In this document: positions 8,687-16,563 of the stretch, piece by piece
Position numbering within the stretch: position 1 is the stretch's first letter
Layout: every line of letters starts with the position of its first letter
Source: Dictyostelium discoideum
Taxonomy: Eukaryota
Direction: 5' to 3'
NCBI GenBank assembly: GCA_000004695.1
Contig: CM000152.2
Span: forward strand, 160,001 to 224,000
DNA: 64,000 bases
Notes under the pieces: generated by a model
What the model saw: the letters and a program-made list of their open reading frames with translations, nothing else
What the model was told of the DNA's origin: nothing
Databases searched by the model: none
Program-made: the position numbers and the translations under genes

Positions 8687-10015
8687 ATGGCAAAAATAAT
8701 TAAACCACCAACACAAGAAGAAATGAGAGATTTAACATCATTATTATCATCAGGTGAACCATATGAAATATTAGGATGTGATCCTGATTCAACACAAAAA
8801 GAAATAACAAAAAGATATAGAGATTTAGCAAGAAAACATCACCCAGATAAACAACAGCATAATGGTAATAATAAAAACGATGGTGGTGATATGATGACAA
8901 AGATTAACAATGCATACAAGTTACTCTCAAATGAAAGATTTAAAGAAGTCTATGACGTCTATCTATTACAAGAGATGATGATGGATGGTGATGGTAGTGG
9001 TAGTGGTGGTGTTGATTTTGATACAGATAGAATATATCGTGAAGCTAGATTCAAAAACATCTTATTAACCTCACTTGGACTCTTATTCAACACTTTCTCA
9101 ATCCCATTCAGAACTATAGCTGTTGTAATTCAATCAAATCCAACCATAATCAAACCAATGACTGTACTAAAATCAATGACCAAAGGACACGGTTTCTTCA
9201 AAGGTCTATTCAGGGGCACCGCCTTCCTCCTCTCTTCATCAGTATTAGAATTAATTCGTGAGAAATCAATTGAAACTTCATTTAAATATATTGACAATTT
9301 AATAATACCATCATCATCATCATCTGACAGTGGTAGTGGTAGTGGTGGTAGTAAAAAATTACAAATTTTAAAATCATTTATAAATATATTCACTAAAGCA
9401 ATATTAAATTTCCCAATTCGTATGATTGGTAATATTTTAATATTGTCACCACCTGGGTATGGTGTATTTAGAGTTATTAAGGATGTAATATTACGTTATG
9501 ATCAAGCCACCACTGGTAATATCATTATGAGCGTTAGCAATGGTAGAGCCCCGCCAATTCAGTGGAAGAATTTATTCTACTCGTTGGGTTATTCATTGGC
9601 AATTGTTTATAGTAAAAAGTTGATTATAAAAGGTTTGAAGGTTATTGATATTCATGTTTACGAAGGTAGTATCAAAGATCCAAATAGTAAACTCTATCGT
9701 TACTCAAACTATCTCCTTAGTAAAACTTTATTCCGTGTCGCTTTGCAAACCATCCTCGTTAATCCATTCGATGTTTTGCATTCTCAATATCCACGTATCC
9801 TTTTAGATAGTTGGTTAAATGGTTCCATACCTGTACCTGTTGCTCAGAATCCAATCTCATTGGCAATCGATATCTATCGCTCAAATAATAATAGTATAAC
9901 TAAATTCTTTAATGGTGTAATTCCATTATTCTTTTGTAAGATTTTCGAAGATTTTTGTGAGCAATGTGATGTTAGTGATATTGATGATTATGAAGATGAC
10001 GATATTTATGCTTAA
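8687..10015 (+). CDS. DnaJ (J-domain) protein, 442 aa
   Basis: N-terminal J domain with the HPD motif (YEILGCDPDSTQKEITKRYRDLARKHHPDK...AYKLLSNERFKEVYD). Intact single ORF ending in an acidic DDYEDDDIYA tail. Confidence 0.88.
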   Translation: MAKIIKPPTQEEMRDLTSLLSSGEPYEILGCDPDSTQKEITKRYRDLARKHHPDKQQHNGNNKNDGGDMMTKINNAYKLLSNERFKEVYDVYLLQEMMMDGDGSGSGGVDFDTDRIYREARFKNILLTSLGLLFNTFSIPFRTIAVVIQSNPTIIKPMTVLKSMTKGHGFFKGLFRGTAFLLSSSVLELIREKSIETSFKYIDNLIIPSSSSSDSGSGSGGSKKLQILKSFINIFTKAILNFPIRMIGNILILSPPGYGVFRVIKDVILRYDQATTGNIIMSVSNGRAPPIQWKNLFYSLGYSLAIVYSKKLIIKGLKVIDIHVYEGSIKDPNSKLYRYSNYLLSKTLFRVALQTILVNPFDVLHSQYPRILLDSWLNGSIPVPVAQNPISLAIDIYRSNNNSITKFFNGVIPLFFCKIFEDFCEQCDVSDIDDYEDDDIYA

Positions 10016-10688: not shown

Positions 10689-11377
10689 ATGAATATCTCA
10701 CCACCGCCACCTCTATCACATCCACACCACTCATATTCCAGTCACCAAAACAACAACAACAACAATAACAACCACCATCATAGCTCTAACAGCCATAGTC
10801 ATCACAGTAATAGCAATATGTACTCTCAGCAACAACAACAACAACAACAACCGCCGCCACCACCACCATCCCAGCAACATCATTTAAATTATCATAACAC
10901 TTCAACTCCACCACCACCTCCACCATTACAACATCATAGTGGTCACAATAATTCATACCATCATCAATATAGTAGTGTGACGCAACCAAGTATAGTTATA
11001 AGCCATTATCCGCCACCACCTCCACCACCTCCAACGGTGCCACCTCCTCCACCTCCATTACCTTCAAATAATACAATCGAACAACAACAACAACAACACT
11101 ATAACAACTCTTTTCAATCCAATGTACCATATAATAATCAACAACACTCACCTCAACAAACCACCCCATCAAAAAAAAATAATCCGCATGCTTCTCAAAA
11201 TAATAAAAATTGTATGTTTAATAATTAAATCGTATTTTATTTAGTAGTGAAAATATATAAATAAAAAATAAAAAATAAATAGTAATAACAATAATAAAAA
11301 TAAAAAACAAAAAAAAAACAATAAATAATAAATAATAATAATAATAACAATAATAAAAAATAAATAAAAAAACAATA

Positions 11378-11412
<35 letters not shown>

Positions 11413-11547
11413 TATAAATTTACTAACAAATCCTATTAATATTAAATAGTTAAAAAACAAAACCCATTCAATGGAAATACTACTGGTAACTCTACAGTTG
11501 TTTCAAAAAGTTTAACACCACCCTCTCATAATAATGTAAATAATAAC

Positions 11548-11621
<74 letters not shown>

Positions 11622-12374
11622 TAACAACAATAATAATAGCGGTAAGAAATATAAAAATGATCAAAGAAAAAGGTCATCAAGTGATAGTAATGCAAAACGT
11701 AATGGAGGTGGTAATGACTATTATAATCATAATAACTATTACAATAATAATAATAATAATAATAATAATAATCACCACCATCATCATCATTCAAATAGTA
11801 ATAGTAATTATTATAATTCAACTGCCGAAAACTATAATAACAATGGCTATTATAATAATAACAATAATAACAATAATAATGGTAATAATAATAACAATAA
11901 TAATGGTAATAATAATAATAACAATAATAATAATGAACCAATATTCTTTAAGGATTCTGATAAAGCAATACCAGAACTAATGAAAGAATATTTAGGTAGC
12001 TACTCTGAAGTTCATTTGGATCCTCATCCTCAACCAAATATTTACGCAATATTAAAAGAATATTTAAAAGATTTCTCTGCTCATAAAGAAGAAAGAGAAA
12101 GAAATAAATATCAACCAACAAGATGGCAAGAATATGCTATAAAACTTTTTATGTATACTGTATGTATTATTAAAAATTACAAATTAAAAATTAAAAATAA
12201 TAATAATAAAATAAACAAATTAACTAACCCAAAAGTTTTTTTTTATTTATTATTATATATTTTTAGTTGAAATTAAAAGAATTTGAATATGCTATTCATA
12301 AAAATGATTTACAAAGCTTATTAAACAGGGCAAAGAGTCATAAAGAGATTGAATTGGAGAATATTATCAATAAC
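10689..12374 (+). CDS. Asn/Pro/Gln/His-rich low-complexity hypothetical protein, 3 exons (join 10689..11211,11450..12159,12267..12374)
   Basis: Exon 1 is Pro/Gln-rich, with a GTATGT donor at 11212. A 238 bp AT-rich intron ends at attaaatAG (11448-11449). Exon 2 is open in frame 1 from 11450 to 12159 (poly-Asn, a His6 run, then non-repetitive EPIFFKDSDKAIPELMKEYLGSYSEVHLDPHPQPNIYAILKEY...). The second intron runs GTATGT 12160 to ttttAG 12265-12266, and the terminal exon reaches TAA at 12372-12374. Confidence 0.6.
11533..11640. repeat. (AAT)n coding poly-Asn tract in the N-rich gene
   Basis: Near-perfect AAT array, in frame 1 of exon 2. Confidence 0.9.
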
Positions 12375-13054
12375 TATATATCAACAATCAGTAATAACAA
12401 TTGATCTGTAAAAGGATGGATTCAAAAAAAAAAAAAAAAACAAAATAAATAAAATAAGAAAGCAACGACAAAAACTAAAAAATAAAAAATAAAATATATA
12501 AACAACACTAATAAAAAAAAAAAAAATAAAAAATCATATGATAAATTTGTATTAATAATGTAATTTCATTATAAATATCCACATACATTTATCATCTTTA
12601 TATTTATTCTAATTAAAATTGATAATGTACTACAAGTTTTTTTTTTTTTAATCTTTTTATTTTATGGATTATAGTGTTACATATTATCCATCTTTTTATT
12701 TTTTATTTTTTTATTTTTTTTTTTTATTTATTTATCTGTATGTCTTGTTCATAAAAAATTGTAAATAAAGTTGTTGTTGTTGTTGTTGTGTAATTGTTGT
12801 TTTATTATTGAATTGCGTCGTTTTGAGTTTTCTTTATACATTCATGTTGTTTGTTTGTTTATTTGTTTATTTGTTTTTTTTTTTTTTTTTTTTTTGGATA
12901 TAAAAAAAAAAAATTATATATATATTTAATAAAATGATAGTAATTTTAATTTTTCTTTCTGCTAATTTTTTCTTCCTATAAATATTATAAAAAAAATATA
13001 CATATTAATATTTCATAGTTTCGTTTTATTTAAAACTATTATTGTAATTCCGTA

Positions 13055-13098
<44 letters not shown>

Positions 13099-13171
13099 GG
13101 TAAAACATATGTATATATATAATTTCTTGACCAAAATTATCAATTAATTTGATTGATAATAATAATAATAA

Positions 13172-13351
13172 TTAATAATTTAAACTTACTTTAAATAAAA
13201 CGTGTTGTCTAATTACTGGATCATATTTTCTAAGTAATAACTTTTTAGTGCTGAGTAAAGCACTTTTGGTTGTTCTATAAAAGTAACCAGTATTGGCTGA
13301 TGAAACCATTTTAATAATTACTGTACTAATCTTTTTAATTGGTGTACCCAT
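13172..13351 (-). CDS. mrpl33: Mitochondrial ribosomal protein L33 (bL33), 59 aa
   Basis: Minus-strand ORF, ATG 13351..13349 to TAA 13174..13172. It translates to [59 protein letters not shown] and aligns to bacterial L33 ([20 protein letters not shown]...KLELKKFDPVVRQHVIYKE). The ORF track omits it because it is below the 60-aa cutoff. Confidence 0.8.
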
Positions 13352-13408
13352 TTTTATATTAAACTTTTATGTGTGATTTGTAAAATTGAAATAATAAAAA
13401 ATATTGAT

Positions 13409-13442
<34 letters not shown>

Positions 13443-14206
13443 AAATGAAAATAAAAAAAAAAAAATAAAATAAAAAAAATAAAAAAAAAAAAAACGAAAA
13501 AAAAAAAAGCAATCATTTTATTTATTCCAATGTTTAGTAATAATTATGGAAATTTACCAATTTATTAGATGTAACCATTTGGAAAAAAAAAAAAATAAAA
13601 TAAAAAAAAAATAAATAAAAAAAAATGTTTAAAAATTATAAATAAAAAATAAAATAAAAAAAAAAAAAAGAAAAATGGTCTCTTCAAAAAAATTACTTTA
13701 TCTATTATTATTATTTTAAAAATAGAGTGAAATAAATAAAATAAATAAAATTTAAGTTTTAAAAAACTAGTTTTAAATAACCATTTTTTATTAAATATCC
13801 AATATTCATTACTCCAATTTATTTAAAAATATCCAAATATGAAAAAAAAATTTTAATTTGGAATTTTTAATTAGTGTTTAGGAAAAAAAAAAAAAAAAAA
13901 AAAAAATACAAAAAAAAAAATAAAAAAATAAAAAAAAAGATGGTTTGGAAACCCAATTTTATTGTAAAAAAAAAAAAATCATTTTCAAAAATGAAAAAAA
14001 AATTAAAAAAAAAAAAAAAAAATCTCAACTTTTTTTTTTTTTTTTTTTTTTTTTCTTCATTATTAACATTATTTTAAAAAAATACAATAATTTATATAGG
14101 ATGGATTTACAAGCAGAATACATTTCATTGAAAAAGGTATTGACATAACATAACCCCTTACACTAAATCATTATTAAAAAAAATATCTTTTTTTTTTTTT
14201 TTTTTT

Positions 14207-14246
<40 letters not shown>

Positions 14247-14285
14247 ATATTTTAAAAATAAAAAATGTTATTAAAAAAAAAACTT

Positions 14286-14318
<33 letters not shown>

Positions 14319-14452
14319 CCCATTACAACACAATAAAATAGATATATTAAAATTTTAATATATTAACCTTTTTTTTTTTTCCCCAAAAAAATTTTTTTTA
14401 ATAAAATCTAAAAATAATAATAAATAATAAATAAATAAATCAAAAATCAAAA

Positions 14453-15235
14453 ATGGCACAGGAAATTGCATATCTTTCAGAATTAGCAAAATTAGTTCAA
14501 GAAACAGCTTCAATTAGAAAAGAATTGGAATCAATTAGAGTCGAAGCAAATAAAGTACAATCTGCTCCAAAATCAACTCCAGCACCAGTTGAAACTAAAC
14601 CAACTCCAGCACCAGCACCAACTTCAGTACCACATGTTGCAGCATCAACTAAACCAGCAGCAGTAGCACCAAAAACTGTTGTTGCACCAACTCCAACTCC
14701 AACTCCAGCACCAGCAGTTGAAAGTAAACCAGTTGATACAAGAACAACCCAAGAAAAATTAAATACAATTTCATCAGTTAAACAAGTTGTTACAACACCA
14801 GCTGGTTTCAGAGTAACAGGTTCTCCAGCTCCAACTCCAACACCAACTCCAGCACCAGCTAAAACTTCAACAACACCAGTTTCATTCAATTCACCAGCAA
14901 AACCAGCTCCATCAACAGCCAAAGATGGTGTTTCTCCACAAATTGTAAGTTTATTAAATTTTTTTTTTAAATCATAGAAATATTAAGATTATTAATACTA
15001 ATTTCCAATCTTAAATTCCTTTTTTTTTTTTTTTTTTCATTTTTTTATTTAGAAAACAATTGTTGATGCAGTTAAAGCTAAATCTAAAGTAGACAAGACA
15101 ATGGATCCAACTAAACTTGAAAACTATTTATCAGAATCAGACTTTTTGGTTGTATTTGATTGTTCATTAGCTGAGTTCCAAAAATTACCAAAATGGAAAC
15201 AAGATAGTAAAAAGAAAGAAACTGGTATTTATTAA
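14453..15235 (+). CDS. Hypothetical protein with N-terminal coiled coil, Pro/Thr/Ala linker and small conserved C-terminal domain (join 14453..14944,15053..15235)
   Basis: ORF 14453.. ends in ...SPQI with a GTAAGT donor at 14945. The acceptor tttatttAG at 15051-15052 continues [60 protein letters not shown] to TAA at 15233-15235. No family recognised. Confidence 0.65.
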
Positions 15236-16080: not shown

Positions 16081-16563
16081 ATGAAATTACATAATGAAAC
16101 AGTTACAATTGAATTAAAGAATGGAACAATTGTACAGGGATCAGTTGCAGGTGTTGATGTTAGTATGAATACTCATTTAAAAACAGTTAAACTCACACTC
16201 AAAGGAAAGAATCCTGTAAATTTAGATACATTAAGCATTAGAGGAAATAATATCAGATATTTCATATTACCAGAATCTTTAAATCTTGGTACACTTTTAG
16301 TTGATGATACTCCAAAAGTTAAAGCAAAGAAAACTACTTCAAAACCAGGTGGTAATTATCAATAACATTATTAATCATTTATTTATTCATTATTAATTAT
16401 TAATTTATTTATTAATTTTAATTACTAACTATTATTATTAATTTATTTTTAAAATATAGAATCTAAACCAAGTATGAGAGGTGGTCGTGGTGGTGGTCGT
16501 GGTGGAGCAAGAGGTGGTTCAAGAGGTGGTTCAAGAGGTGGTTCAAGAGGCGGTAGAAATTAA
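16081..16563 (+). CDS. snrpd1: Small nuclear ribonucleoprotein Sm D1 (join 16081..16351,16460..16563)
   Basis: [84 protein letters not shown] is near-identical to the SmD1 Sm fold. A GTAATT donor at 16352 and aaaatatAG acceptor at 16458-16459 join exon 1 to the C-terminal RGG/RG-repeat tail ([29 protein letters not shown]), stop TAA 16561-16563. Confidence 0.9.

What the first reader, a model, noticed from the sequence alone, without database searches (positions are those of the whole stretch)
13172..13351. Mitochondrial ribosomal protein L33 gene hidden below the ORF-size cutoff
A 59-codon minus-strand ORF is absent from the track (60-aa minimum). It encodes a clear bL33 homologue (…[16 protein letters not shown]…[15 protein letters not shown]…) of the non-zinc-binding type. 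Its last sense codons overlap a GTAAGT, so an alternative spliced C-terminus is possible. The gene lies in a 2 kb stretch that otherwise looks empty.
Basis: partly seen in the sequence, partly recalled or inferred. Interest (0 to 1): 0.5.

Follow-up and report, generated by a model that had tools for sequence, protein, structure and literature searches.

The report
Known Dictyostelium mitochondrial L33 gene
The short ORF is the first exon of the already annotated, two-exon Dictyostelium discoideum gene for mitochondrial ribosomal protein bL33m, so it is a real but ordinary housekeeping gene that an ORF-length filter missed.

Summary
The 59-codon minus-strand ORF at 13351..13172 exists exactly as described. 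It matches the ribosomal protein L33 family above the curated cut-offs (Pfam PF00471 E=4.6e-10; TIGR01023 49.6 bits). It is not the whole gene. Removing a 214-nt intron (13189..12976, 11.7% GC, GTAAGT…TTTATAG) joins exon 1 (13351..13190) to a 30-nt exon 2 (12975..12946). This replaces the tail VSLNY with EEKISRKKN and completes the family profile (47/47 positions; TIGR01023 59.1 bits). The 63-aa spliced product is identical to the deposited D. discoideum AX4 protein "ribosomal protein L33, mitochondrial" (XP_642075.1 / Q54YX7). The 59-aa read-through form is not on record. The intron sits at the same position in D. firmibasis, D. purpureum and Acytostelium subglobosum, gene order is conserved, and dN/dS is 0.15-0.29. 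The protein has no cysteine, so it is the zinc-free (C-) type. Mitochondrial location is inferred, not shown. The gene is already known, so interest is low.

The parts
13190..13351 (-). Exon 1 coding part: ATG at 13351..13349, 54 codons, MGTPIKK…RQHVLFK. This is the core of the bL33 fold.
   Evidence: sequence, ORF, translation. Pfam PF00471 residues 11-54. GC 27.8% against 11% in the flanks. 84.5% nucleotide identity to D. firmibasis over exon 1 plus about 130 bp upstream.
12976..13189 (-). Spliceosomal intron, 214 nt, phase 0, GTAAGT…TTTATAG, 11.7% GC
   Evidence: coordinates, and the only downstream AG that gives a family-like C-terminus. The same position has a GT-AG intron of 432, 140 and 79 nt in D. 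firmibasis, D. purpureum and Acytostelium. Removing it gives exactly the deposited protein.
12946..12975 (-). Exon 2 coding part: GAA GAA AAA ATT AGC AGA AAG AAA AAT TAA, giving EEKISRKKN and the stop codon (12948..12946)
   Evidence: the profile match extends to 47/47 positions, +6.8 bits on Pfam and +9.5 bits on TIGR01023. E55 and I58 are nearly invariant across the family. EEKISRKK is encoded by exon 2 in all four genomes.
13172..13189 (-). Read-through tail of the mechanical ORF (VSLNY plus TAA). This is intron sequence, not coding.
   Evidence: The read-through tails are not conserved: VSLNY, VCLNTY…, V and V in the four species. The 59-aa form is absent from the 15-billion-protein collection.
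13352..14452 (.). 1.1-kb AT-rich (about 10% GC) intergenic region between the bL33m start and the divergently oriented villin-headpiece gene that starts at 14453 (+). It presumably holds both promoters (inference).
   Evidence: No Rfam or tRNA hit.
12405..12945 (.). 3' flank shared with the convergent plus-strand gene that ends at 12404. On the minus strand it has poly(A)-signal-like hexamers: ATTAAA at 12930 and AATAAA at 12871 and 12863.
   Evidence: The 3' end of the transcript was not determined.

Best explanation
This is the nuclear gene mrpl33 of Dictyostelium discoideum. It has two exons and encodes the 63-residue, zinc-free (C-) form of large-subunit ribosomal protein bL33. The pre-mRNA is spliced at 13190|12975, which removes a 214-nt AT-rich intron. 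The small, very basic protein is made in the cytosol, imported into mitochondria and built into the large subunit of the mitochondrial ribosome. There, as in bacterial and other mitochondrial ribosomes, it binds large-subunit rRNA near the tRNA exit (E) site. Shown here: the ORF, family membership, the splice model and its conservation, identity with the deposited protein, and purifying selection. Inferred: transcription and splicing in vivo, import, and assembly into the mitoribosome.
For: The ORF and its translation are. Family membership: Pfam Ribosomal_L33 E=3.5e-12, 46.9 bits against a cut-off of 25, profile positions 1-47 of 47; TIGR01023 rpmG_bact 59.1 bits against a cut-off of 23.95. 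The spliced 63-aa product is identical to EAL68184.1 / XP_642075.1 / Q54YX7, 'ribosomal protein L33, mitochondrial [D. discoideum AX4]', on a 6.36-Mb contig. It matches 48 solved ribosomal chains. Among them are E. coli-type bL33 (E=6e-14, aligned through …HVIYKEAKI, which spans the exon junction) and chains named bL33m or MRPL33 from mitoribosome structures. Apart from amoebozoan and environmental eukaryote-like sequences, the nearest relatives are alphaproteobacterial L33 (Thalassobaculum, Rhodospirillales), as expected for a protein of mitochondrial descent. The intron is at the same phase-0 position after HVLFK in three other dictyostelid genomes, and exon 2 is conserved. Gene order is conserved: DnaJ, a roughly 450-aa gene, L33, a VHP/LIM gene. 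dN/dS is 0.29, 0.22 and 0.15 against D. firmibasis, D. purpureum and an environmental relative. From established knowledge: bL33 is a bacterial-type protein absent from cytosolic 80S ribosomes, and Dictyostelium has no plastid, so the mitoribosome is the only home for it.
Against: No transcript, proteomic or localisation data could be consulted. The collections searched held no D. discoideum cDNA, and no paper in the library deals with this gene. There is no obvious long N-terminal presequence: the N-terminus aligns almost residue for residue with bacterial L33, so import would have to use an internal or uncleaved signal. The 'mitochondrial' label in the public record is itself a by-similarity annotation.
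Confidence: 0.95

Rival explanations
1. The unspliced 59-aa ORF is the real, or an alternative, product: the intron is retained, giving a bL33m that ends in VSLNY instead of EEKISRKKN.
For: The ORF is intact and already passes the family cut-offs. The read-through adds only five codons before a stop, so a retained-intron mRNA would give a near-full-length protein.
Against: The tail is not conserved: read-through gives V+stop in D. purpureum and Acytostelium, and an unrelated tail in D. firmibasis. The spliced tail restores the nearly invariant E55 and I58 and raises the profile scores. The exact 59-aa sequence is not on record. The intron has a canonical GTAAGT donor and a T-rich tract followed by TAG.
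Confidence: 0.03
2. The ORF is a non-functional relic: a pseudogene, a nuclear copy of organellar DNA, or a chance ORF in AT-rich DNA.
For: ORFs of this length arise by chance in 13% of simulations of the 2-kb stretch. No expression data were available.
Against: The family E-values of 1e-10 to 1e-16 cannot be chance. The reading frame is intact in four species at syntenic positions, with dN/dS of 0.15-0.29. It has a spliceosomal GT-AG intron and lies among nuclear genes on a 6.36-Mb chromosome. It is the only bL33 found for the species in the protein search.
Confidence: 0.02

Closest known systems
D. discoideum mrpl33 product (UniProt Q54YX7, XP_642075.1, EAL68184.1: 'ribosomal protein L33, mitochondrial' / bL33m)
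   Same: Identical over all 63 residues once the intron 13189..12976 is removed. This is the same gene.
   Different: Nothing in the spliced form.
Bacterial 50S ribosomal protein bL33 (RpmG), zinc-free C- type, as in E. coli ribosome structures
   Same: 46 residues align without gaps: [17 protein letters not shown]…[19 protein letters not shown] against [17 protein letters not shown]…LKKFDPVVRQHVIYKEAKI, E=6e-14. Both are about the same length and lack the four cysteines.
   Different: This one is encoded in a eukaryotic nucleus and interrupted by a spliceosomal intron. It has a slightly longer basic C-terminus (SRKKN) and four more N-terminal residues. It works in a mitochondrial rather than a bacterial ribosome (inferred).
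bL33m / MRPL33 seen in solved mitoribosomes (chains named bL33m or MRPL33: 8a22_AA, 7pkt_z, 6xyw_AC At3g06320, 3j7y_1 and 4ce4_6 mammalian MRPL33, 6ywe_X, 3j6b_X yeast MRPL39)
   Same: Same family and size class, all nuclear-encoded. E-values range from 7.5e-12 to 3e-05 over nearly the whole length.
   Different: The Dictyostelium protein is closer to bacterial L33 than to mammalian or yeast bL33m: 54 bits against 37 and 27 bits. The library consulted holds no paper on a Dictyostelium mitoribosome structure.

Membership tests
Ribosomal protein bL33 (Pfam PF00471; NCBIfam TIGR01023 rpmG_bact) | Sequence scores above the curated family cut-off | tested here: met
   PF00471: 40.1 bits unspliced and 46.9 bits spliced, against a cut-off of 25. 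TIGR01023: 49.6 and 59.1 bits, against a cut-off of 23.95.
Ribosomal protein bL33 (Pfam PF00471; NCBIfam TIGR01023 rpmG_bact) | Full-length coverage of the roughly 50-residue domain, including the C-terminal K-E-x-K-I motif | tested here: met
   The spliced product covers profile positions 1-47 of 47, the unspliced product only 1-44. E55 and I58 are nearly invariant and present only after splicing.
Ribosomal protein bL33 (Pfam PF00471; NCBIfam TIGR01023 rpmG_bact) | Conserved core residues (K-x-V-S…G-x-x-Y-x-T-x-K…K-L-x-L-x-K-Y-D-P…H) | tested here: met
   K14, V16, S17, G22, Y25, T27, K29, K37, L38, L40, K42, D44, P45 and H50 are invariant in the 12-sequence alignment, which includes E. coli and an alphaproteobacterium.
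bL33 zinc-binding (C+) subtype | Two CxxC pairs that form a zinc ribbon | tested here: not met
The 63-aa protein has no cysteine. The corresponding stretches read VSSANTG and YDPVIR, as in C- proteins.
Mitochondrial bL33m (nuclear-encoded mitoribosomal protein) | Encoded in the nuclear genome of a eukaryote | tested here: met
   There is a GT-AG spliceosomal intron conserved in four dictyostelids. The gene lies on a 6.36-Mb D. discoideum contig, flanked by DnaJ, villin-headpiece and Sm/LSM genes.
Mitochondrial bL33m (nuclear-encoded mitoribosomal protein) | Located in mitochondria and physically present in the mitoribosomal large subunit | not testable with these tools
   This is inferred only. 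bL33 is absent from 80S ribosomes and Dictyostelium has no plastid (established knowledge). The nearest bacterial relatives are alphaproteobacterial. No proteomic or localisation data were found.
Mitochondrial bL33m (nuclear-encoded mitoribosomal protein) | Gene is expressed and spliced as modelled | not testable with these tools
   No cDNA or RNA-seq resource was available. The junction search of metagenome contigs returned only an intronless environmental orthologue. Indirect support comes from the conserved intron position, the conserved exon 2 and dN/dS of 0.15-0.29.

The most novel reading that the evidence does not exclude
Regulated intron retention could yield a second bL33m isoform that ends in VSLNY and lacks the basic EEKISRKKN tail, giving D. 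discoideum mitoribosomes two variants. Separately, the phase-0 intron after HVLFK may be an old amoebozoan intron that was lost in at least one uncultured dictyostelid-like lineage (intronless contig L004).
Probability: 0.04. Interest if true: 0.15.

Novelty: already known. Interest (0 to 1): 0.05.

Why it matters
It matters little for biology. This is a housekeeping mitoribosomal protein gene that has been in the D. discoideum AX4 annotation since the genome was deposited. The lesson is about method. In intron-containing, very AT-rich genomes, a 60-aa ORF cut-off and ORF-only reading miss small ribosomal protein genes and misread their ends. The mechanical ORF here has five false C-terminal residues and lacks nine true ones.

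Tried and rejected
1. An exact look-up of contigs encoding the 63-aa protein found no gene position on record, so I got no independent copy of the D. discoideum locus or a cDNA.
2. A scan of metagenome contigs for the spliced exon junction returned only the environmental contig already in hand (L004 = L005). That contig is an intronless genomic orthologue, not a D. discoideum transcript.
3. Literature searches ('mrpl33' + Dictyostelium; Dictyostelium + mitoribosome) found no paper on this gene. The 2007 survey of mitoribosomal proteomes covers D. discoideum, but its table is a figure and no supplement is held.
4. I tested whether ORF length alone is significant. It is not: 13% of simulations reach 59 codons.
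5. I listed the other AG acceptors within 600 nt of the donor. None gives a family-like C-terminus except 12976.
6. I looked for anything else in the 'empty' 2 kb, using Rfam at E<=1, a tRNA scan and ORFs of at least 30 aa. There were only low-complexity poly-F/poly-K ORFs.
7. I did not run structure prediction or the large representative-protein search, because the sequence matches to solved ribosome chains were already decisive.

Full report
**Observation.** The minus strand of the window carries an ATG-to-TAA ORF of 59 codons at 13351..13172. A GTAAGT lies at 13189..13184 and overlaps codons 55-56. The ORF sits in a 2048-bp, 13.8% GC stretch (12405..14452) between two plus-strand genes. That stretch holds no other credible ORF, no Rfam match at E<=1 and no tRNA. 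ORF length by itself is weak evidence in this composition: 267 of 2000 first-order Markov simulations of the stretch contain an ATG-ORF of at least 59 codons. Three things set this ORF apart. GC rises to 0.28-0.30 against about 0.10 on either side. It matches a protein family. It is conserved in other species.

**Family.** The 59-aa translation matches Pfam Ribosomal_L33 (PF00471) at E=4.6e-10, with 40.1 bits against a cut-off of 25. It matches NCBIfam TIGR01023 (rpmG_bact) with 49.6 bits against a cut-off of 23.95. Both matches stop at residue 54, exactly where the GTAAGT begins, and leave the last profile positions unmatched.

**Gene structure.** I treated 13189 as a splice donor and listed every downstream AG. 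Only the acceptor at 12977-12976 (…TTTTTTTATAATATTTATAG|GAAGAAAAA) gives a family-like continuation, EEKISRKKN followed by a stop. The model is:
- exon 1: 13351..13190, 54 codons
- intron: 13189..12976, 214 nt, phase 0, 11.7% GC
- exon 2: 12975..12946, 9 codons plus TAA

The spliced 63-aa protein covers Pfam profile positions 1-47 of 47 (46.9 bits). Its TIGR01023 score rises to 59.1 bits. Against solved structures it aligns without gaps to E. coli-type bL33 through the exon junction, …RQHVLFKEEKI against …RQHVIYKEAKI, at E=6e-14.

**Identity with a known protein.** An exact-sequence look-up shows that the 63-aa spliced product is EAL68184.1 / XP_642075.1 / UniProt Q54YX7, 'ribosomal protein L33, mitochondrial [Dictyostelium discoideum AX4]' or 'Large ribosomal subunit protein bL33m', on a 6.36-Mb contig. 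The 59-aa read-through form is not in the 15-billion-sequence collection. The window is therefore D. discoideum nuclear DNA, and the gene is already annotated with this two-exon structure.

**Comparative test of the splice model.** Orthologues were retrieved from D. firmibasis (90% identity), D. purpureum (about 80%) and Acytostelium subglobosum (about 74%), together with their loci.
- In all three, a single GT-AG intron of 432, 140 and 79 nt interrupts the gene in phase 0 immediately after …HVLFK.
- In all three, exon 2 starts GAAGA(A/G)AA(A/G) and encodes EEKISRKK.
- Reading through the donor instead gives unrelated tails: VSLNY, VCLNTY…, V and V.
- dN/dS of the D. discoideum coding sequence is 0.29 against D. 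firmibasis, 0.22 against D. purpureum and 0.15 against an environmental relative, which indicates purifying selection.
- Gene order is conserved: DnaJ protein, a roughly 450-aa low-complexity protein, L33, then a villin-headpiece protein (D. purpureum) or a LIM protein (D. firmibasis).

**Subtype.** The protein has no cysteine. Where zinc-binding (C+) bL33 proteins carry two CxxC pairs, it reads VSSANTG and YDPVIR, like E. coli L33 and other C- proteins.

**Mechanism and what is inferred.** bL33 is a bacterial-type large-subunit protein with no counterpart in cytosolic 80S ribosomes, and Dictyostelium has no plastid (established knowledge). Beyond amoebozoan-like sequences, the nearest relatives are alphaproteobacterial L33. 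The protein also matches chains named bL33m or MRPL33 in solved mitoribosomes of plants, algae, fungi and mammals. The most likely account is therefore a nuclear gene whose small basic product is imported into mitochondria. There it would assemble into the mitoribosomal large subunit and bind rRNA near the E site, as bL33 does in bacteria. Transcription, splicing in vivo, import and assembly were not tested here. No cDNA was reachable, and no paper in the library treats this gene. The N-terminus aligns almost residue for residue with bacterial L33, so there is no long cleavable presequence. That is common for small mitoribosomal proteins (my own knowledge), but it is not evidence of import.

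**Rivals.**
- Intron retention giving the 59-aa form is possible as a minor species. The non-conserved read-through tails, the lower profile scores and the canonical splice signals argue against it.
- A pseudogene or chance ORF is excluded for practical purposes by the E-values, the intact frames at syntenic positions in four genomes, and the dN/dS values.

**Verdict.** The gene is already known (mrpl33, Q54YX7) and ordinary. Interest is low. The only lesson is that an ORF-length filter hides small, intron-containing ribosomal protein genes and mis-assigns their C-termini.

Noticed in passing
L004 1102-1290 (same contig as L005; JGI metagenome 3300028164, Ga0256895_1020277): An environmental, dictyostelid-like 1.6-kb contig (25% GC) carries a bL33m orthologue (79% identity) as one uninterrupted 189-nt ORF. 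It has genomic-looking AT-rich flanks and a second gene upstream. The intron shared by Dictyostelium and Acytostelium is therefore absent here, either lost or because the contig derives from a transcript.
   Followed up: partly
proteins P0013 and P0019: P0013 (…HVLFKASVVFPSRDFCFSHK…) looks like a prokaryote-style gene call that reads into an intron at the same post-LFK position in another eukaryote. P0019 is P0007 with a 19-residue insertion after TTRKSR, which looks like read-through of a different intron. Metagenome protein sets seem to hold mis-called eukaryotic bL33m genes.
   Followed up: no
window 14453..15235 (+): The divergent neighbour is a two-exon gene. It has a Pro/Thr/Ala-rich exon (14453..~14960) and a C-terminal villin headpiece domain (15101..15235; PF02209, E=8.7e-16). 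It aligns with the VHP gene next to L33 in D. purpureum. D. firmibasis has a LIM-domain gene call at the corresponding place.
   Followed up: partly
window 16081..16365 (+): A 94-aa ORF with an LSM domain (PF01423, E=2.5e-16), an Sm/LSM-type small nuclear ribonucleoprotein. It is another small gene close to the ORF-length cut-off.
   Followed up: partly
window 8687..10015 (+) and 10689..12404 (+): There is a 442-aa DnaJ-domain protein (PF00226, E=7.5e-17). Next to it is a low-complexity (poly-Q/P/N/H) multi-exon gene that ends at 12404, convergent with the L33 gene. Both are syntenic with D. firmibasis and D. purpureum.
   Followed up: partly
window 14025..14174: A small GC rise (about 0.19-0.20 against about 0.10) inside the otherwise very AT-rich intergenic region. 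It includes CCTATATAAATTATT on the minus strand. There was no ORF, Rfam or tRNA hit. It may be a promoter element, but this was not examined further.
   Followed up: no
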